From Euryarchaeota archaeon UBA346 (lineage in GTDB: Archaea > Thermoplasmatota > E2 > DHVEG-1): DNA of 59,121 nucleotides. A program made the position numbers and the translations under genes. How positions within the stretch are numbered: the stretch's first letter is position 1; each line of letters begins with the position of its first letter. The stretch lies in NCBI GenBank assembly GCA_002496355.1, contig DAJP01000050.1, forward strand, positions 1,810-60,930. The letters are read 5' to 3'. Shown here piece by piece: positions 8,631-52,422 of this stretch. The notes under the pieces were generated by a model that was not told the DNA's origin, searched no databases, and was given only the letters and a program-made list of their open reading frames with translations.

Positions 8631-9377
8631 CTAGGGTTCCTTCATGAAATGTTTGACGATGGAGAACATTCCTAACGCTAGGAGAATTCCACCGATGACG
8701 TCAGTTATCCAATGAATAGCTAAATAGATAACTGCGCAGATCACACAGATGGCGCAGAAGTATGTTAGGTACAAGAATCTTTTGTTGTTGGTCCGAGAAA
8801 CTGTTTTTACAAGCAGCAAGGACATTGCGACATGAAGCGAAGGGAAGCAATTGTTGCTTGTGGTGGTCGTATAAAAGAATTGTTCTATGCTAGGGATGAC
8901 CAAGTTTAACGCTGAGGCAGATCCGTAATAATGATAGACATTGGTGATGGGGACAAAAAGATAAAATGGTAATGCAATCGCGTAGATTCCAACCAAAGAA
9001 TATGCGAATGTTTTCATCGCCTTTTTCTCGTCAACAATGATGAAATAGAGAAGAGAGAACCAGAGCAGAAACGGATACAACCCGATGTAGATAAAGACAA
9101 AAAAATAGACAAGAATCGGTGTCCAGAATTGAGTGAACCAATGGACAATCCCATCCTCGAACCCTTGGATGCTTTGAGTAAAGTTGGCATGAATCATGTT
9201 TGTGGTGATGGTATCAAGGATGTTTACCTCAAGAAGGTGAAGGATGACTACCATAAGAATAAGACAAAGTGAGATGGATTGATATCTCAGAGTCAATGTG
9301 TACTGAGTGAGTGGTTTTTTCCAGTTGTCTTTTGGAATGAGAAAGATTAGACAAATCACAAAGAGAAGGAGATTCAA
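8631..9377 (-). CDS. PAP2-superfamily integral membrane (lipid) phosphatase/phosphotransferase
   Basis: About 6 predicted TM helices. PAP2-like catalytic motifs CFPSLHVAMS and HWITDVIGG near the C-terminus. Confidence 0.6.
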   Translation of the reverse strand: MNLLLFVICLIFLIPKDNWKKPLTQYTLTLRYQSISLCLILMVVILHLLEVNILDTITTNMIHANFTQSIQGFEDGIVHWFTQFWTPILVYFFVFIYIGLYPFLLWFSLLYFIIVDEKKAMKTFAYSLVGIYAIALPFYLFVPITNVYHYYGSASALNLVIPSIEQFFYTTTTSNNCFPSLHVAMSLLLVKTVSRTNNKRFLYLTYFCAICVICAVIYLAIHWITDVIGGILLALGMFSIVKHFMKEP

Positions 9378-9420
9378 AAATGCTAAAATAATGAACCAGG
9401 TTTCTATGGTTTCACCACCG

Positions 9421-9975
9421 TCATATGTGGATTTCTCGCAAGGTAGTGTAGATCGGTCCGTTCGGTGTCAGCTCGCTTTTCTTCAATGCAATGGCGTGTA
9501 CTTCCTGGGTTGTGAATTCTGCATCCTGGTGGTGTTCTAAGGTGGTGAGGAGTTTCTCTTTATTTCTCGCTGTTCTTACTCGACCAATCGTCAAATGCGC
9601 AGAGAATCCTCTTGTTTCCTTTTTGAACCCAAGGGATGCTAAACTGGAATCAAGAGTATGTGCGATTGGTCCAATCTGGCCGTTGTCAAGGATTCCTATC
9701 CAGATGACTTTCATATAATTCTTGTTAGGGAACACCCCAGTACCTCGGAGCGTGACTGGAAATGATTTGATGGTTTTAACTGATTCTTTCATACTCTGTT
9801 CTATCGCGTCAATGAATTTTTCTTCGGTATCCCCAAGAAACTTGAGGGTGATGTGGATGTTTTCTGGTTCAACGAGTTTCACATCAGCACCTGTTTTTTT
9901 TATCTCGTTTTCAAATGCAAGTATCTGAGATGTTGAAGAGATGTCGATTGCGATGAATCCTCGAAAGAGTGTCAT
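9421..9975 (-). CDS. thpR: RNA 2',3'-cyclic phosphodiesterase (2H family, ThpR/LigT)
   Basis: 184 aa with the two H-x-T/S-x motifs of 2H phosphoesterases (HITLKFLG and HLTIGRV) at the expected spacing. Confidence 0.85.
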   Translation of the reverse strand: MTLFRGFIAIDISSTSQILAFENEIKKTGADVKLVEPENIHITLKFLGDTEEKFIDAIEQSMKESVKTIKSFPVTLRGTGVFPNKNYMKVIWIGILDNGQIGPIAHTLDSSLASLGFKKETRGFSAHLTIGRVRTARNKEKLLTTLEHHQDAEFTTQEVHAIALKKSELTPNGPIYTTLREIHI

Positions 9976-38024: not shown

Positions 38025-39062
38025 TTGATATCCCCCTTTGACCTAAATGGGGTAGGGCCTATGAAGGAATTAGACATCACCACATTGCGACACGGAACCG
38101 ACCTTGTAAAAAGAGGTTTTTCAAAAATGCAAAAAGGCGGGGTCATCATGGATGTCACCACCGTAGAACAAGCAAAAATCGCAGAGAAAAGTGGTGCCGT
38201 TGCAGTGATGGCTCTCGAACGAGTTCCTGCTGATATCCGTGCCCATGGTGGCGTCGCACGAATGGCAGATCCCACCATCATAAAGGAGATTCTTAACACC
38301 GTCAGCATCCCGGTCATGGCCAAAGCACGTATCGGCCATTTCGTCGAAGCACAAGCCCTCGAGGCACTCGGCGTCGATATGATTGATGAATCAGAAGTGC
38401 TTACTCCAGCAGATCCGTTTTACCATATCGATAAACGTTGTTTCACCATCCCGTTCGTCTGCGGTTGCCGCAACCTCGGCGAGGCGACACGACGCATCTG
38501 GGAAGGAGCAGCAATGATACGAACTAAAGGAGAAGCAGGGACTGGAAATATCATTGAGGCTGTTCGACATCAGCGCATGGTAACACGCATGATTAGCACT
38601 CTTAAAACAATGCCCACCGTAAAAATACAAAAAGTAGCTGATGCGTATTGTCAAAGTTATATTACCTCATATAAAACATTGACTGATCAAAACGTTGATG
38701 ATAAAACCATTGTGTTCAGCTCATCAACCTATGGGGTCTTGAAAAAGGAAGTCTATGACATCTTAAAAGAAATCAAGCAACTGCAGCGACTCCCTGTCGT
38801 CAATTTCGCGGCAGGCGGAGTAGCAACCCCTGCAGATGCAGCACTCATGATGCAGATTGGAAGCGATGGAGTCTTCGTTGGATCGGGTATCTTCAAATCA
38901 AAGAACCCCGAGAAAAGAGCAAAAGCTATCGTAGAGGCGGTCGCTCATTTCGATGAACCAGAGACGATTGCTGACGTCAGTAAAAACCTTGGGGATGCCA
39001 TGCTGGGAATCGAAATTAGCTCGATACCAAAAGATCAACTTCTACAGGAACGAGGCTGGTAG
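38025..39062 (+). CDS. pdxS: Pyridoxal 5'-phosphate synthase lyase subunit PdxS
   Basis: [55 protein letters not shown] and [19 protein letters not shown]. The likely start is the ATG at 38061 (MKELDITTL...). An insertion of about 40 aa lies after the [10 protein letters not shown] block. Confidence 0.92.
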
Positions 39063-39064
39063 AA

Positions 39065-39655
39065 ATAGTCACCATAGGGGTCTTATCACTTCAAGGAGCG
39101 GTATCTGAGCATCTCACCTCCATGAACCGTGTTTTTCAAGAAGATAAAAAAAAAGGGAAAGCTATCCTAGTGCGTCAATCAAAAGATATTGATTCCTGTG
39201 ATGCATTGATCATCCCCGGGGGAGAAAGCACCACTATCTCCCGTATTTTGGTCAACTCCGGGATGTATGATGTGATCCGCGAACGGATGAACAACCAGGA
39301 CATCGCCCTGATGGGAACCTGCGCGGGATGCGTCCTACTTGCCAAGGAACTCACCGATACAAAGGCGGATGTCAAACTCCTAGAAGCAATCGACATGCTG
39401 GTGGAGCGCAATGCTTTTGGTAGGCAAAAAGAATCATTTGAACAATCAGTCCAGATAAAAGGATTGACCAACTCCTATCATGCCGTGTTTATCCGAGCGC
39501 CGATTATAACAAAAACATGGGGGGATTGTGAGATACTTTCAAAAGCTGGAAAAGAAATAGTCATGGCCAGGCAGAAAAGCTACCTGGCGCTATCGTTTCA
39601 TCCTGAATTGACTGATGACCTCAGGATTCATCGATTTTTTTTAGAGATGCTATAG
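39065..39655 (+). CDS. pdxT: Pyridoxal 5'-phosphate synthase glutaminase subunit PdxT (non-canonical start)
   Basis: The ORF track starts at the ATG at 39122, but the frame is open upstream and encodes IVTIGVLSLQGAVSEHLTS. This aligns with the PdxT N-terminus (B. subtilis MLTIGVLGLQGAVREH as I recall it). The only candidate starts are ATA at 39065 and CTG at 39056. Catalytic GTCAGC and FHPE are present. Confidence 0.85.
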   Translation: MVTIGVLSLQGAVSEHLTSMNRVFQEDKKKGKAILVRQSKDIDSCDALIIPGGESTTISRILVNSGMYDVIRERMNNQDIALMGTCAGCVLLAKELTDTKADVKLLEAIDMLVERNAFGRQKESFEQSVQIKGLTNSYHAVFIRAPIITKTWGDCEILSKAGKEIVMARQKSYLALSFHPELTDDLRIHRFFLEML

Positions 39656-40573: not shown

Positions 40574-44279
<3,706 letters not shown>

Positions 44280-49026: not shown

Positions 49027-50082
49027 TTGGTGAATGGAATAATGGCACCTAGGAAACGAATGATCAGTGTTCTTTCGGTTGTTCTCTTCTGTACGATTTT
49101 ATCATCCCTATCCGCAAACGGGTCTCTTTTGACACTTCACCATCAGACGTCATCCATTGATGACATCACCTTACATGATGACGCGTTCCATGGCCGAGGC
49201 AATCTTCCATTCATTGAATGGTGGTATTTTGATGCAAAACTTGACAACGGTTACTCACTTGTTCTTGGTGTACAAGTCCTCAATATCTTTGCAAGGGGGA
49301 TTGTCACCACCAGACTCACCCTGTATGATAAAGAATCAGTCTTACTCAAAAACTATGAGAAATATTTTCTCAGGGATTTATCTGCTTCCTCTGACATCCC
49401 CTCGGTGTACATCGAAGGTAACCAAGTCATTCTTGGTTCTTATGATGCTGTAAATGATCGCTTTGTCTATAACGTAAACATACAGAACCCAGAAAGTTCC
49501 GTTTCTTTACAATTTGTTGGATGTACAAAAGGCTGGAAACGACAGCAGCAAACAGGCGACTGGTGGGCGGTAATCCTCCCCCGAGCAAACGTGACCGGGA
49601 CTATCACCATTAATAACACAACCATGAATGTAAATGGAACCGGGTATCATGATCACAACTGGGGGATCGGTGCAAGGGTCGCCATGCATTTCGGATGGTT
49701 CTGGGGAACCTGCAGCTCAACGAACTACACGGTCACCTGGGCTGAGATACAAACAACACGGTTGACACAGATTCCAATAATGGTCCTGAACACAAAAAAT
49801 GGTGGTTATCTTGAAATACCCTCAGACACCATATGGTTCTCAACAGAAAATATCTCCTTTGATCATTTCAGACGCGTCCCCTGGTTCTTCAGCATAGAGA
49901 CGGTCACCGAGCATGTTTTCCTGATCATCGATATGGAGGTCATCAGCGTCGATCATACCGATATGTTCGGATTCATCAAATACTGGCGGTACCATGTCCG
50001 ATGCTCAGGGACAATCGTCGTCGATGGTCATATGGAGACCGTGGATGGGATCTCCATCATGGAGTATCTGAGGTTCCGATAG
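49027..50082 (+). CDS. Secreted CrtC/AttH-superfamily (carotenoid 1,2-hydratase-like) protein
   Basis: Signal-like MISVLSVVLFCTILSSLSA. LPFIEWWYFDAKLDNGYSLVLG and GTGYHDHNWG resemble the hydroxyneurosporene-synthase/AttH lipocalin-like family. Confidence 0.5.
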   Translation: MVNGIMAPRKRMISVLSVVLFCTILSSLSANGSLLTLHHQTSSIDDITLHDDAFHGRGNLPFIEWWYFDAKLDNGYSLVLGVQVLNIFARGIVTTRLTLYDKESVLLKNYEKYFLRDLSASSDIPSVYIEGNQVILGSYDAVNDRFVYNVNIQNPESSVSLQFVGCTKGWKRQQQTGDWWAVILPRANVTGTITINNTTMNVNGTGYHDHNWGIGARVAMHFGWFWGTCSSTNYTVTWAEIQTTRLTQIPIMVLNTKNGGYLEIPSDTIWFSTENISFDHFRRVPWFFSIETVTEHVFLIIDMEVISVDHTDMFGFIKYWRYHVRCSGTIVVDGHMETVDGISIMEYLRFR

Positions 50083-51415
50083 CAGCGACTGCGGATTGTT
50101 TCATCATCCGTTTCAGAGGTTTACTGAGATGTCGACGGGCGCAGATAGGGACTTCATAGAAACCCGGTGTGATCGAACGTTTTTTTTCCTGCAGGACTGG
50201 CTCTGAACTACTCGTCCCACAATTTCTACATTTGTAGCCTTGATTGGTCCCTTTTGATTTCATATGTTTGCCGCAAGTCGGACACACTGGATTTTCTACC
50301 TTTATGGTCAATGGCACGAGTTGTTTGACATTGATTTTTTCAAGATTGATAGTGAGCGGATGCTCACGGACGCCTCCATAGGCTTCTACAATGTCTCCCT
50401 CGGAAAGCTTTCGAATACTCTTTCGGAATCCTTTTGTTGGTTCATATGCAGCACAATCGATTATCCCGGTTCTATCCTGGATCCTGAAGAGGACATGACC
50501 GCCTTGAATCGTGAACGGAGGTTCAACAACGGTTCCCTGGACGATGACGGATTCATATGGTTTAATCTGATCGATGGATTTTCTCTGCAGATGATCATCG
50601 GTCCCTTGATTCGTCACAAACACCAGCCAACTCTCAATCGGCTCAGATTTCACCTGTTCTGATGCCATCACCAGCTCGTCTGGACTATCCCCTCGTATCC
50701 CATAGAGGATCGGGCAGGGTGACGCTGGGACGATACGATTATGATGATTCTCAATATCATAGTTATCAAACGTGTTTGGGTATTTCGCATCCATGTGTTG
50801 GACAGAACGTGCATCAACATGTCGCTTCGTACCCCATCGTTGTCGCGGCCGATACGTGATCAACTCATAGGTCCAATCCCCGGGTTCCCAGCAGATCGCC
50901 GCGGTCGCCCCAATCAAGCCGCGCTTGTTTTTGTATCCTTCATAGACCGCGCGATGTTTGTGTAGAAGGTTGATGACCTCATCAAGATTTACGACCGTTG
51001 TCACCACTTTCCAATAAAAATCAAGTGGTGGCTTTTCTTGAAGAAGAACATACCCTGGATTTGTGTTCTCATCATCAACCCGGGCTTGTGTTTCAACGGT
51101 CTCCTTCACAATCCTAGCAAGATTCTCCTGCTGACTTTCTGAAAGCTCCAATGACCGATCAGGGGAACAGGATATCTCTTGACCATCAATCATTCCGATT
51201 TTCTGTCTTTTGTTCCCACGGGTTTTCCCAACCTGAAGACACAATGCTCCATTCCCCCGGGTCTTCCAAGGGACATTGGGGTTCAAACGAACAAGCCGTG
51301 GATAACCGATGATCGCATAGTCATCCATGATCTTCTCAATGATAGTCCGTGCTACATACGTGGTGCACCCACCATTCACTGAGTCTGTGTCGTCAATACC
51401 TATCCAGATGAATAT
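50057..51415 (-). CDS. tiaS: tRNA(Ile2) 2-agmatinylcytidine synthetase TiaS (non-canonical start)
   Basis: The ORF track starts at the GTG at 51379. The frame is open for 12 more codons back to an in-frame TGA and encodes IFIWIGIDDTDS, the conserved TiaS N-terminal motif. That stretch contains only ATA/ATC/ATA/ATT codons and no ATG/GTG/TTG. The C-terminal zinc ribbon CPTCGKHMKSKGTNQGYKCRNCG is typical of TiaS. Confidence 0.8.
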   Translation of the reverse strand: MFIWIGIDDTDSVNGGCTTYVARTIIEKIMDDYAIIGYPRLVRLNPNVPWKTRGNGALCLQVGKTRGNKRQKIGMIDGQEISCSPDRSLELSESQQENLARIVKETVETQARVDDENTNPGYVLLQEKPPLDFYWKVVTTVVNLDEVINLLHKHRAVYEGYKNKRGLIGATAAICWEPGDWTYELITYRPRQRWGTKRHVDARSVQHMDAKYPNTFDNYDIENHHNRIVPASPCPILYGIRGDSPDELVMASEQVKSEPIESWLVFVTNQGTDDHLQRKSIDQIKPYESVIVQGTVVEPPFTIQGGHVLFRIQDRTGIIDCAAYEPTKGFRKSIRKLSEGDIVEAYGGVREHPLTINLEKINVKQLVPLTIKVENPVCPTCGKHMKSKGTNQGYKCRNCGTSSSEPVLQEKKRSITPGFYEVPICARRHLSKPLKRMMKQSAVAAIGTSDTP

Positions 51416-51462
51416 TCACCAAAAACGTTATTAGAGAGGTCGTACTTTAAGCTTCATTACCT

Positions 51463-52422
51463 ATGGATAGAACCGACTTACTCACAAACATCAGAGAGTT
51501 TTTAGGGGACGCGGGTTTTTCCGTCTCTGACCCATGTACGTTACGTCTCCCAGGTTTCGACCTCGTGGCTCGACGAGGGGAAACCCTGCTCATTCTTAAA
51601 GTACTGTCAAACATCGATGGTCTCTCAGAGGATGTTGCCCAAGAACTCCGAGCGGTAGCGTATCTGCTCAAAGCAACTCCCTTGCTCATCGGTGAAAAGA
51701 ACGGGGTAAACAACCTTGAGGATGATGTGGTGTATTTCCGGTTTGGCATCCAGACAGTCACGACAGCTACATTGCAGAACCATCTACTTGAGGAAATCCC
51801 GGTACGTGCCTATGCAGCCCCCGGTGGGTTATACGTCAACCTTGACCAGGAAAAAATACGACGATTACGCCAGGAGAAAAACATCTCGCTGGGTAACTTT
51901 GCGCGTCATGTTCGCGTCTCAAGACGCACCGTCCGGATGTATGAGGATGGTATGAGCGCACGCATCGACATCGCGGACCGCATCGAAGAGATGTTTGAAC
52001 AGGCCGTGACAACACCAATTGACCTGCTCAAGCCGTTGCTCATGGAAACCAAACAATTACCGTTCTACAAAAAAAACCAGGGGGACGCCAAAGAACTCCA
52101 ATCCGAGATATTCACCCTGCTTCAGAACATCGGCTATCGCGTCATCCCCATGGATCGCTGCCCCTTTGAAGCTCTGAGCAAAGAAAAGGAAAAAATCCTT
52201 CTTACCTGTGTACAACAATACAATAAGAAACTCGCAGAAAAAGCCCATTTCATCAGCAGTATCGCAAAGATCACTGAGAAACATGCCGTGGTCTTTACTG
52301 ATAAGGATATCGAGAAAAAGAACCTTGAAGGAACCCCGATTATCGGGAAAAAAGAACTACGGAAAATCCGTGATCCTGAGGATGTCTTTACATTAATTCT
52401 CGAGAGAATCACCTCTGATTGA
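51463..52422 (+). CDS. Archaeal putative transcriptional regulator with XRE-type HTH (COG1395-like)
   Basis: 319 aa. The N-terminal domain is followed by RRLRQEKNISLGNFARHVRVSRRTVRMYEDG (HTH_XRE) and a C-terminal domain, the layout of the conserved archaeal COG1395 family. Confidence 0.65.
   Translation: MDRTDLLTNIREFLGDAGFSVSDPCTLRLPGFDLVARRGETLLILKVLSNIDGLSEDVAQELRAVAYLLKATPLLIGEKNGVNNLEDDVVYFRFGIQTVTTATLQNHLLEEIPVRAYAAPGGLYVNLDQEKIRRLRQEKNISLGNFARHVRVSRRTVRMYEDGMSARIDIADRIEEMFEQAVTTPIDLLKPLLMETKQLPFYKKNQGDAKELQSEIFTLLQNIGYRVIPMDRCPFEALSKEKEKILLTCVQQYNKKLAEKAHFISSIAKITEKHAVVFTDKDIEKKNLEGTPIIGKKELRKIRDPEDVFTLILERITSD

What the first reader, a model, noticed from the sequence alone, without database searches (positions are those of the whole stretch)
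51380..51420. tiaS can only include its conserved N-terminus by initiating at ATA/ATC, with no canonical start available
Seen in sequence (minus strand): TGA ATA TTC ATC TGG ATA GGT ATT GAC GAC ACA GAC TCA GTG... encodes I-F-I-W-I-G-I-D-D-T-D-S-V. The first ATG/GTG/TTG is the GTG at 51379, after the DDTDS block. An in-frame TGA (51418-51416) closes the frame 12 codons upstream. An SD-like GGTGA (51420-51416) lies 6 nt before the ATC at 51409 and abuts the ATA at 51415. Established: TiaS proteins begin approximately M-x-x-W-(I/V)-G-I-D-D-T-D-S, and this region belongs to the catalytic kinase-like domain. Inference: translation starts at a near-cognate AUA or AUC codon. TiaS is the enzyme that lets the cell decode AUA as Ile, which hints at possible autoregulation. 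The same pattern recurs at the reductase gene and at pdxT in this window.
Basis: partly seen in the sequence, partly recalled or inferred. Interest (0 to 1): 0.7.

Follow-up and report, generated by a model that had tools for sequence, protein, structure and literature searches.

The report
tiaS starts at a conserved AUC
The archaeal tRNA-modifying gene tiaS in this window has no ATG/GTG/TTG start and almost certainly starts at an ATC codon, which about 40 related genomes have kept at the position where more distant relatives have ATG; gene callers miss it and truncate the protein.

Summary
On the minus strand the sequence reads TGA(51418-16) ATA TTC ATC(51409-07) TGG ATA GGT ATT GAC GAC ACA GAC TCA GTG(51379). 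The Pfam TiaS kinase-domain profile starts at the Trp right after the ATC.

Relatives settle which codon is the start. In 50 full-length GTDB genome loci, the codon before the conserved Trp is ATC in 39, ATT in 1, ATG in 9 (8 outgroup loci plus the nested L035) and ACG in 1. The ATC sits 4-6 nt downstream of a conserved SD-like GGTGA or GGGAGTGA. The spacer varies freely. The third base of the ATC changed at most twice on a tree where 112 synonymous sites changed 6-20 times (median 13).

The ATA at 51415 is not conserved and directly abuts the SD. The start is therefore AUC, and the AUA-based autoregulation idea loses its basis.

The lineage is Thermoprofundales (MBG-D). All 120 closest database protein clusters are mis-called: 89 lack the DDTD motif and the rest are extended from upstream.

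Two other genes in the window also use near-cognate starts. The geranylgeranyl reductase uses ATA. pdxT uses CTG (not ATA/ATC), overlapping the pdxS stop.

This is a new example of a known kind of feature. It has not been confirmed experimentally.

The parts
50057..51409 (-). tiaS coding sequence as re-defined here. It starts at ATC 51409-51407, has its stop codon at 50059-50057, and encodes 450 aa beginning (M)WIGIDDTDS.
   Evidence: Translation. Four TiaS Pfam domains. PDB TiaS match. The start is placed by homology to the ATG of outgroup orthologs.
51407..51409 (-). ATC, the inferred initiation codon of tiaS.
   Evidence: ATC in 39 of 50 loci, ATT in 1, ATG in 9 (8 outgroup loci plus the nested L035) and ACG in 1, all at the same position. 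Two third-base changes against a median of 13 at synonymous sites. In 8 of the 12 close-clade loci (window included) that carry the in-frame TGA, it is the only near-cognate codon between the TGA and the Trp.
51416..51420 (-). SD-like GGTGA. Its last three bases form the in-frame TGA at 51418-51416.
   Evidence: Conserved as GTTTTTGGTGA or TATCGGGAGTGA, 4-6 nt upstream of the ATC across the clade. TTTGGTG lies 5 nt upstream of the ATG in outgroups L036, L040 and L057. SD 5-mers are enriched upstream of canonical starts in the window: 8/35 against 2/35 in the control.
51410..51415 (-). Spacer ATATTC between the SD and the start.
   Evidence: It varies freely among close relatives (acaatc, attatc, aacagc, aatgtt, aaaact, ccaacc, aaaacc) while both flanks are invariant. 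This is the pattern of untranslated spacer.
51380..51406 (-). Codons for WIGIDDTDS, the conserved start of the TiaS kinase (TCKD) domain. They lie upstream of the first canonical start.
   Evidence: Pfam profile position 1 aligns here. The stretch aligns to A. fulgidus TiaS residues 4-12. Differences among relatives are almost all synonymous.
51377..51379 (-). GTG, the first canonical start codon in the frame. It is not the real start.
   Evidence: Not conserved: relatives have GTA, ATC, ACC or ACG. No SD upstream. Starting here would delete the DDTD motif.
51443..51457 (-). Putative BRE/TATA (ATGAAG CTTAAAGTA) driving tiaS. This is an inference. The predicted transcription start is near 51420-51424, giving a 5' UTR of about 11-15 nt.
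   Evidence: Near-invariant in the close clade and retained as CTTAAAGTA in the L010 group. The spacing argument uses general archaeal promoter geometry from my own knowledge. No transcription-start data are available.
51428..51433 (+). TTATTA, putative TATA box of the divergent regulator gene, about 29 nt upstream of its ATG. This is an inference.
   Evidence: Conserved in the clade. Position read.
51463..52422 (+). Divergently transcribed PRK04140-type HTH transcriptional regulator with a canonical ATG. It shares the 53-nt intergenic region with tiaS.
   Evidence: NCBIfam NF003162 scores 305.8 bits against a cutoff of 263. Pfam HTH_3. Its CAT (ATG on the other strand) is visible upstream of tiaS in most relatives.
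23274..24488 (-). Geranylgeranyl reductase family gene with an ATA start at 24488-24486. AGGGGA at 24500-24495 lies 6 nt upstream.
   Evidence: The first canonical start is codon 55, after the GxGxxG motif. FAD_binding_3 profile position 1 aligns at residue 7. Relatives start MKYDV/MDYDV at this position. ATA is present in 8 independent assemblies of the same sequence and in 2 other species, with a variable spacer.
39056..39655 (+). pdxT with a CTG start at 39056-39058, overlapping the pdxS stop (CTGGTAG).
   Evidence: At the site AGG [NTG] GTA, 51 sequences (the window plus related loci) carry CTG in 30, TTG in 11 and ATG in 10. SNO profile position 1 aligns at residue 21 of the stop-to-stop frame, and the first ATG is at codon 35. 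TIGR03800 PdxT scores 206 bits.
8631..9407 (-). PAP2-family membrane protein gene. It may start at ATA 9407-9405 (GGTGGTGA 4 nt upstream) or at ATT 9392-9390. This is unresolved because a TTG at 9377 is also available.
   Evidence: Relatives start at M/V aligned to the ATT, or at M aligned to the ATA (P0276, P0300).

Best explanation
tiaS (tRNA-Ile2 agmatidine synthetase) in this Thermoprofundales (MBG-D) genome is translated from the AUC at 51409-51407.

Shown:
- The frame is closed by TGA three codons upstream.
- The conserved WIGIDDTDS N-terminus lies before any ATG, GTG or TTG.
- The ATC occupies exactly the position of the ATG of outgroup orthologs (ATG TGG ATT GGT...).
- It sits 4-6 nt downstream of a conserved SD-like GGTGA or GGGAGTGA, and outgroups carry the same element before their ATG.
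- The spacer is unconstrained.
- The C of the ATC is under nucleotide-level purifying selection across about 40 species genomes.

Inferred:
- A short-leadered mRNA binds the 30S subunit through the SD. Initiator Met-tRNA reads AUC with a third-position mismatch, so the protein begins Met-Trp-Ile-Gly.
- Initiation is much weaker than at AUG. In E. coli, AUC gives about 1-2% of AUG and inserts Met.
- Reversion to ATG or drift to ATT/ATA is almost never seen, although synonymous sites are saturated. The weak AUC is therefore probably selected, most simply to hold this tRNA-modifying enzyme at a low level, as with the AUU start of E. coli pcnB.
- The same window has an ATA-start reductase and a CTG-start pdxT, so the lineage appears generally tolerant of near-cognate starts.
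For: - Sequence and frame.
- The domain starts at the Trp.
- Codon counts: 39 ATC, 1 ATT, 9 ATG and 1 ACG in 50 loci. Other conserved Ile columns vary freely, and ATC makes up 24% of Ile codons.
- Anchored upstream alignment shows SD, variable spacer and ATC, with the same TTTGGTG-N5-ATG layout in outgroups. The ATC clade is essentially monophyletic.
- Parsimony: 2 changes against a median of 13 and a minimum of 6 at 112 synonymous sites.
- In 8 of the 12 close-clade loci (window included) that carry the TGA, the ATC is the only near-cognate codon between the TGA and the Trp.
- Among the 120 closest protein clusters, none has Met before the Trp. 89 lack the motif, and 30 of the other 31 have Ile there.
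- An independent assembly is identical.
- The window uses GGAGG- and GGTGA-type SDs.
- Near-cognate starts in the reductase and pdxT are verified by relatives.
- E. coli AUC initiation level and N-terminal Met: bioRxiv 10.1101/063800.
Against: - There is no direct evidence: no N-terminal peptide, ribosome profiling or transcription-start map.
- In S. solfataricus, aIF1 discriminates against AUU (PMC4705826), so efficient AUH initiation in archaea is not expected by default.
- The anti-SD sequence of this organism is not in the window and is assumed from the general archaeal consensus.
- The 'kept weak on purpose' step is inference only. The data do not explain why C is preferred over T or A.
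- Part of the GTTTTTGG conservation may belong to the divergent gene's promoter rather than to the SD.
Confidence: 0.8

Rival explanations
1. Leaderless variant. Transcription starts at or within a few nt of the ATC, driven by the TAATAA / TATATAATAAT box about 16-18 nt upstream. The 5'-terminal AUC is used without an SD, and the GGTGA / GGGAGTGA conservation belongs to the bidirectional promoter.
For: A TATA-like box lies 16-18 nt upstream of the ATC in both sub-clades. Only 8 of 35 canonical-start genes in the window have a 5-mer SD, so many genes are probably leaderless.
Against: The GTGA core is conserved across sub-clades whose adjacent promoter-like sequence differs (GTTTTTGGTGA against TATCGGGAGTGA). 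It keeps an SD-like distance of 4-6 nt, and ATG outgroups have TTTGGTG at the same spacing. The TAATAA box is about 29 nt from the divergent gene's ATG and fits that gene better. From my own knowledge, leaderless initiation is reported to depend strongly on a cognate AUG.
Confidence: 0.1
2. Neutral tolerance. The lineage's initiation machinery accepts near-cognate codons well enough that ATC is simply an adequate start. It was fixed once by drift, is not selected for weakness, and has no regulatory role.
For: Three different near-cognate starts (ATC, ATA, CTG) occur in about 48 genes of one window, with a possible fourth. The pdxT start drifts ATG, TTG, CTG among relatives.
Against: Under neutrality the third base should drift to T or A, or return to G, as often as synonymous sites change (median 13 changes). 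Only 2 changes are seen. pdxT is a coupled reinitiation case, and the reductase is second in an operon, so neither shows that de novo initiation is relaxed.
Confidence: 0.25
3. Initiation is at AUA (51415), or otherwise depends on the AUA-decoding tRNA-Ile2 that TiaS modifies, which would create a feedback loop.
For: The window has an ATA at 51415. Codon 3 of the gene (after the Trp) is ATA in 28 of 41 tips, and its third base changed only 6 times, the lowest value among the synonymous sites.
Against: The ATA at 51415 is not conserved (ACA, ATT, AAC, AAT, AAA, CCA) and abuts the SD with zero spacing. The conserved start, AUC, is read in elongation by tRNA-Ile1, not by the TiaS substrate. An early AUA sense codon would give positive rather than homeostatic feedback. 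ATA is in any case a common Ile codon in these genes (478 of 1625).
Confidence: 0.05
4. Translation starts at the first canonical codon (GTG 51379, or ATG at codon 30 as the databases annotate). This would give a protein without the DDTD motif, and the upstream codons would be relics.
For: Gene callers choose these starts. The 100%-identical cluster is annotated as 423 aa beginning MDDYAIIG.
Against: The nine codons WIGIDDTDS are kept under purifying selection, with almost only synonymous differences, across 40 genomes. They match profile positions 1-9 of the TCKD domain and the A. fulgidus N-terminus. Neither the GTG nor the ATG is conserved in relatives, and the GTG has no SD.
Confidence: 0.03
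5. A sequencing or assembly error turned ATG into ATC.
For: None beyond the general possibility in a metagenome assembly.
Against: An independent assembly has the identical sequence (L127). ATC is present in 38 other species genomes. All 120 nearest protein clusters lack Met at that position.
Confidence: 0.01

Closest known systems
E. coli pcnB (poly(A) polymerase I), AUU start codon
   Same: Both are RNA-modifying enzymes whose genes lack a canonical start and use an AUH near-cognate codon behind an SD. From my own knowledge, the accepted reading for pcnB is that the weak start limits the level of an enzyme that is harmful in excess. pcnB is listed as one of only two confirmed non-canonical starts in E. 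coli in bioRxiv 10.1101/063800.
   Different: pcnB is bacterial (IF3-controlled) and uses AUU, not AUC. No toxicity of excess TiaS is known. Here the codon is conserved across a deep archaeal clade.
Bacterial infC (IF3), AUU start with autoregulation
   Same: Both have an evolutionarily conserved AUH start maintained by selection rather than by accident (PMC4705826).
   Different: IF3 is itself the factor that discriminates against AUU, and this closes the feedback loop. TiaS has no known role in start-codon discrimination, and the conserved codon (AUC) is not the one TiaS enables.
Canonical TiaS genes such as Archaeoglobus fulgidus AF2259 (PDB 3AMT, 3AMU, 4RVZ) and Thermoplasmatota outgroup orthologs
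   Same: They share the four-domain architecture and the N-terminus (M)xxW(I/V)GIDDTDS. The outgroup loci L036, L040 and L057 have the same SD-like TTTGGTG and spacing.
   Different: Those genes start with ATG. The Thermoprofundales clade has ATC at the homologous position.
Archaeal start-codon usage as usually described (AUG, GUG and UUG only, with aIF1 rejecting AUU in Sulfolobus)
   Same: SD-led initiation on a short-leadered mRNA.
   Different: Use of AUC, AUA and CUG is outside the set that reviews ascribe to archaea (PMC4705826) and outside what the gene callers evidently picked in these databases.
Termination-reinitiation coupling with overlapping stop and start (ATGA or NTGnTAG type)
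   Same: The pdxT CTG overlaps the pdxS TAG (CTGGTAG). The L048 tiaS has CTG overlapping the upstream TGA.
   Different: This does not apply to the window's tiaS. It is the first gene downstream of a divergent promoter, with no upstream ORF to couple to.

Membership tests
TiaS (tRNA-Ile2 2-agmatinylcytidine synthetase) | Four-domain architecture: TCKD kinase domain, FLD, OB fold and C-terminal zinc ribbon. | tested here: met
   PF22641 scores 153.7 bits, PF08489 139.6, PF01336 33.5 and PF23783 60.1. All are above their gathering scores.
TiaS (tRNA-Ile2 2-agmatinylcytidine synthetase) | N-terminal W-(I/V)-G-(I/V)-D-D-T-D-S motif and the following GxCTTY segment of the kinase domain. | tested here: met
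   The motif is encoded at 51406-51380 and downstream. It aligns to A. fulgidus TiaS residues 3-61. It is only part of the protein if translation starts at the ATC. The catalytic role of the Asp residues and of Thr18 is from my own knowledge of the 2011 TiaS structure papers, and I could not verify it in the held library.
TiaS (tRNA-Ile2 2-agmatinylcytidine synthetase) | Passes NCBIfam equivalog model NF040849. | tested here: not met
   421.4 bits against a cutoff of 600. The PDB TiaS match has E about 2e-107 over nearly the full length, so this looks like divergence from the model's seed set rather than a different family.
TiaS (tRNA-Ile2 2-agmatinylcytidine synthetase) | Agmatidine formation on tRNA-Ile2 (CAU). 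| not testable with these tools
   This is a biochemical assay. No tRNA-Ile2 gene lies in the window; the only tRNA is tRNA-Gly.
Genes with a conserved near-cognate (non-AUG/GUG/UUG) start codon | No canonical start can include conserved, essential N-terminal residues. | tested here: met
   An in-frame TGA lies 3 codons upstream, and the first canonical codon comes after the DDTDS motif.
Genes with a conserved near-cognate (non-AUG/GUG/UUG) start codon | The near-cognate codon sits at the position of the canonical start in orthologs. | tested here: met
   ATC TGG in 39 loci against ATG TGG in 9 loci, in the same register relative to the SD.
Genes with a conserved near-cognate (non-AUG/GUG/UUG) start codon | Nucleotide-level conservation of the codon beyond amino-acid constraint. 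| tested here: met
   2 changes against a median of 13 and a minimum of 6 at 112 synonymous sites.
Genes with a conserved near-cognate (non-AUG/GUG/UUG) start codon | A ribosome-binding signal at functional spacing. | tested here: met
   GGTGA lies 6 nt upstream, and 4-6 nt across the clade. The organism's own anti-SD is not in the window, so the pairing is assumed.
Genes with a conserved near-cognate (non-AUG/GUG/UUG) start codon | Direct demonstration of initiation at that codon (N-terminal peptide, ribosome profiling or toeprint). | not testable with these tools
   The lineage is uncultured and no such data are held.
infC-type autoregulated non-canonical start | The gene product controls discrimination or decoding of its own start codon. 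| tested here: not met
   The conserved start is AUC. TiaS enables AUA decoding in elongation. The AUA at 51415 is not conserved. This is a sequence-level test only.

The most novel reading that the evidence does not exclude
Thermoprofundales (MBG-D) archaea may have a lineage-specific relaxation or retuning of start-codon selection, for example through altered aIF1, aIF2 or initiator tRNA. Under this reading AUC, AUA and CUG would serve as working start codons for several percent of genes. Within that regime, the tiaS AUC would be a selected expression-setting or regulatory device that has been held for the whole history of the order. It would be the first deeply conserved AUH start described in Archaea.
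Probability: 0.25. Interest if true: 0.7.

Novelty: new member of a known kind. Interest (0 to 1): 0.5.

Why it matters
1. Annotation. All 120 nearest TiaS protein clusters in public databases are mis-called. 89 are truncated and lack the N-terminal DDTD motif, and many also lack the CTTY segment. The other 31 are extended through promoter sequence. Metabolic or tRNA-modification inferences for MBG-D genomes that rely on these models start from a wrong protein. The same applies to the reductase and pdxT here.

2. Biology. Reviews describe archaeal initiation as limited to AUG, GUG and UUG, with aIF1 rejecting AUU. An AUC held under purifying selection across about 40 species, together with ATA and CTG starts nearby, gives concrete and testable cases for studying start-codon stringency with the archaeal (eukaryote-like) factor set.

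3. Method. Gene finders used on archaeal MAGs should allow homology-guided near-cognate starts.

Tried and rejected
- Upstream extension or readthrough. Rejected because TGA and two TAA codons lie in frame, and the upstream 8-codon ATG ORF ends at those TAAs.
- ATA at 51415 as the start. Rejected for lack of conservation and zero SD spacing.
- GTG at 51379 or the ATG at codon 30 as the start. Rejected for lack of conservation, absence of an SD, and loss of the selected motif.
- A conserved RNA hairpin that might assist near-cognate initiation. MFE folds of -14..+76 from 19 loci show no shared structure.
- An inverted repeat, CTATCCA ... TGGATAG, flanking the intergenic region. It is present only in the close clade and not in the L010 group, so I dropped it.
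- An out-of-frame CTG created by ATC+TGG. That frame stops after 4-5 codons, so I rejected it.
- Literature searches for a tiaS start-codon report, for near-cognate starts in archaea, and for the TiaS catalytic residues. They found no report of this feature and no open-access source for the Asp8/9/11 and Thr18 roles.
- A Pfam scan of all other long ORFs, translated stop-to-stop, to look for more hidden starts. It found only the reductase and pdxT, plus the ambiguous PAP2 gene.
- The sigma-70 promoter scanner. I did not use it because the organism is an archaeon.
Full report
**Observation.** The minus strand at 51440-51377 reads ...CTCTAATAACGTTTTTGG TGA ATA TTC ATC TGG ATA GGT ATT GAC GAC ACA GAC TCA GTG. 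Translation gives *IFIWIGIDDTDSV.... The stop-to-stop frame has its first ATG/GTG/TTG at codon 13 (GTG, 51379) and its first ATG at codon 30. Two more in-frame TAA codons lie just upstream, so the frame cannot be extended.

**Identity.** The product carries all four TiaS domains (TCKD, FLD, OB, Zn ribbon) above Pfam gathering scores. Position 1 of the TCKD profile aligns to the Trp encoded at 51406-51404. A. fulgidus TiaS (PDB 4rvz/3amt) matches at E about 1e-107, and its residues 3-61 (VWVGIDDTDSSRGMCTTY...) align to residues 3-60 here. The NCBIfam equivalog model scores 421 bits against a cutoff of 600. This indicates divergence from the model but the same family.

**Database picture.** Among the 120 closest protein clusters (58-100% identity), 89 start after the WIGIDDTDS motif, for example MGGCTTYV..., VARTIIQ... 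or MDDYAIIG.... The other 31 reach the motif only through a fortuitous upstream start. In 30 of these the residue before Trp is Ile and in 1 it is Leu. None has Met there. The 100%-identical cluster is annotated as 423 aa in JGI, NCBI and Logan. This is therefore a clade-wide property that gene callers cannot handle.

**Which codon.** I fetched 59 loci from GTDB species-representative genomes and read the codons upstream of the conserved Trp.
- In 50 full-length genes, the codon immediately before TGG is ATC in 39, ATT in 1 (L033), ATG in 9 and ACG in 1 (a distant GC-rich genome).
- On a neighbour-joining tree the ATC genomes form one clade, with a single nested ATG (L035). The remaining ATG genomes fall outside it.
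- An alignment anchored on this codon shows two upstream patterns: GTTTTTGGTGA-N4-6-ATC and TATCGGGAGTGA-N4-ATC.
- ATG outgroups L036, L040 and L057 have TTTGGTG-N5-ATG. The ATC therefore sits in the same register to the SD-like element as the ancestral ATG.
- In the window's own sub-clade, the 45 nt upstream are nearly invariant and the ATC is invariant. The 6-nt spacer between them differs in almost every genome (atattc, acaatc, attatc, aacagc, aatgtt, aaaact, ccaacc, aaaacc).
- This spacer includes the ATA at 51415, which is therefore neither conserved nor correctly spaced, since it abuts the GGTGA.
- In 8 of the 12 sequences of this sub-clade (window included) that carry the in-frame TGA, the conserved ATC is the only near-cognate codon between the TGA and the Trp.

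**More than chance.** If the ATC were an ordinary Ile codon it should vary synonymously.
- Eight other Ile columns conserved in the same 40 genes use ATT, ATA and ATC freely. ATC makes up 24% of all Ile codons in these genes.
- By Fitch parsimony on the 41-tip clade, third positions of 112 conserved codons changed 6-20 times (median 13). The third base of the start codon changed twice, once to T and once to G.
- The neighbouring synonymous sites GGN and ACN changed 12 and 17 times, so the constraint is local to this codon.

**Rejected alternatives.**
- The GTG at 51379 is GTA, ATC, ACC or ACG in relatives and has no SD.
- An independent assembly (L127) is identical through the region, so a sequencing error is excluded.
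- No shared RNA structure surrounds the start.

**Mechanism.**
- Shown: the architecture is SD, free spacer, then ATC at the ortholog ATG position, with purifying selection on the ATC.
- Supporting: the window uses GGAGG- and GGTGA-type SDs. Five-mers of AGGAGGTGATC occur upstream of 8 of 35 canonical starts against 2 of 35 control windows.
- Inferred: tiaS is the first gene of a unit transcribed divergently from a PRK04140-type regulator (ATG at 51463).
- Inferred: by general archaeal promoter geometry, CTTAAAGTA (51451-51443), preceded by the purine-rich ATGAAG, would start the mRNA near 51420-51424. This would put the GGTGA at the 5' end of a short leader. TTATTA (51428-51433, plus strand) would serve the regulator gene.
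- Inferred: initiator Met-tRNA would read AUC with a third-position mismatch. In E. coli, AUC gives about 1-2% of AUG and inserts Met (10.1101/063800). In Sulfolobus, aIF1 discriminates against AUU (PMC4705826).
- Inferred: ATG has returned only once and ATT appeared only once on a tree saturated at synonymous sites. A weak AUC therefore seems to be favoured. The simplest reading is dosage limitation of a tRNA-modifying enzyme, by analogy with pcnB. Why C rather than T or A is unexplained.

**The autoregulation idea.** It depended on an AUA start. The conserved start is AUC, which is not the codon TiaS enables, so there is no sequence support. One residual oddity remains. Codon 3 (after Trp) is ATA in 28 of 41 tips, and its third base changed only 6 times, the lowest value among the synonymous sites. 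An early AUA sense codon would give positive rather than homeostatic feedback, and ATA is a common codon in these genes, so I give this little weight.

**The other genes.** I translated every long ORF from stop to stop and scanned them against Pfam.
- Geranylgeranyl reductase (23274-24488, minus strand). The first canonical start is at codon 55, after the GAGPAG Rossmann motif. Relatives begin MKYDV or MDYDV exactly at the window's ATA at 24488-24486. The ATA, preceded by AGGGG(A/G) and a variable 6-7 nt spacer, is present in 8 independent assemblies of this sequence and in two other species at 86% and 74% identity.
- pdxT (39056-39655). At the site AGG [NTG] GTA, the window and 29 related loci have CTG, 11 have TTG and 10 have ATG. 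The first base of this codon is the third base of a Gly codon in pdxS, and the CTG overlaps the pdxS stop (CTGGTAG). This suggests termination-reinitiation coupling.
- A PAP2-family gene (8631-9407). It may use ATA (GGTGGTGA 4 nt upstream) or ATT, but a TTG is also available, so this case stays unresolved.
- Overall, about 3 of 48 genes use three different near-cognate starts. This hints at lineage-level tolerance. Only tiaS is a de novo, uncoupled case with deep conservation.

**Lineage.** L006 is MAG 3300003432D and L033 is SG8-52-3. Both are listed as Thermoprofundales (MBG-D) in PMC6461988, which does not mention start codons. Literature searches found no report of a non-canonical tiaS start or of AUH starts in this group.

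**Verdict.** This is a new and unusually well-conserved example of a known phenomenon. It has a practical annotation consequence and offers a testable handle on archaeal start-codon stringency. Direct experimental proof is lacking.

Noticed in passing
window 39056-39062 (+); loci L060-L112: The pdxT start codon overlaps the pdxS stop (CTGGTAG). Across the window and 50 related loci it is ATG in 10, TTG in 11 and CTG in 30. Each change is a synonymous change of the pdxS Gly codon (GGA, GGT, GGC). This looks like translational coupling that tolerates a CTG start.
   Followed up: yes
window 24486-24500 (-); L116-L126: The geranylgeranyl reductase family gene starts at ATA where about 60 relatives have ATG. 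The ATA is conserved in two other species, with AGGGG(A/G) and a variable spacer upstream. Databases annotate the protein as 355 aa, without its FAD-binding GxGxxG motif.
   Followed up: yes
window 9377-9423 (-): The PAP2-family (inositol phosphorylceramide synthase-like) gene has GGTGGTGA directly after the upstream gene's stop, then ATA 4 nt downstream. Relatives start with Met at the position of that ATA, or of an ATT five codons later. A TTG is also available. This is a possible fourth non-canonical start.
   Followed up: partly
L048 2995-3015: In a distant GC-rich Thermoplasmatota genome, tiaS has no Met before F-V-G-V-DDTDS. A CTG overlapping the upstream gene's TGA (GGGCTGACC ACG TTC) looks like a coupled CTG start. 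The gene caller instead extended the ORF 55 codons upstream into the neighbouring gene.
   Followed up: partly
window 51416-51462; L001-L009, L021, L044, L056: The 45-50 nt between tiaS and the divergent PRK04140 regulator gene are almost identical in genomes whose TiaS proteins are only 70-76% identical. This is probably a compact bidirectional promoter with two interleaved BRE/TATA elements. The gene pair is syntenic across the whole clade.
   Followed up: partly
window 51401-51403 (-): The third codon of tiaS (Ile after Trp) is ATA in 28 of 41 genomes. Its third base changed only 6 times, against a median of 13. AUA is the codon that needs the TiaS product. The significance is unknown.
   Followed up: partly
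L035 and L033 (tiaS start): There are two exceptions inside the ATC clade. L035 has ATG with a rearranged upstream region that lacks the GGTGA element. L033 (SG8-52-3) has ATT.
   Followed up: no
window 40574-44279 (-): A bacterial-type NAD-dependent DNA ligase (LigA, with BRCT and HhH domains) lies next to a PolX-PHP polymerase in this archaeal genome.
   Followed up: no
window 20784-27298 (-): A cluster of four UbiA-family prenyltransferase genes lies with the reductase, an amine-oxidase or phytoene-desaturase-like flavoprotein and a carotenoid-synthesis-like protein. It appears to be an isoprenoid lipid or pigment operon.
   Followed up: no
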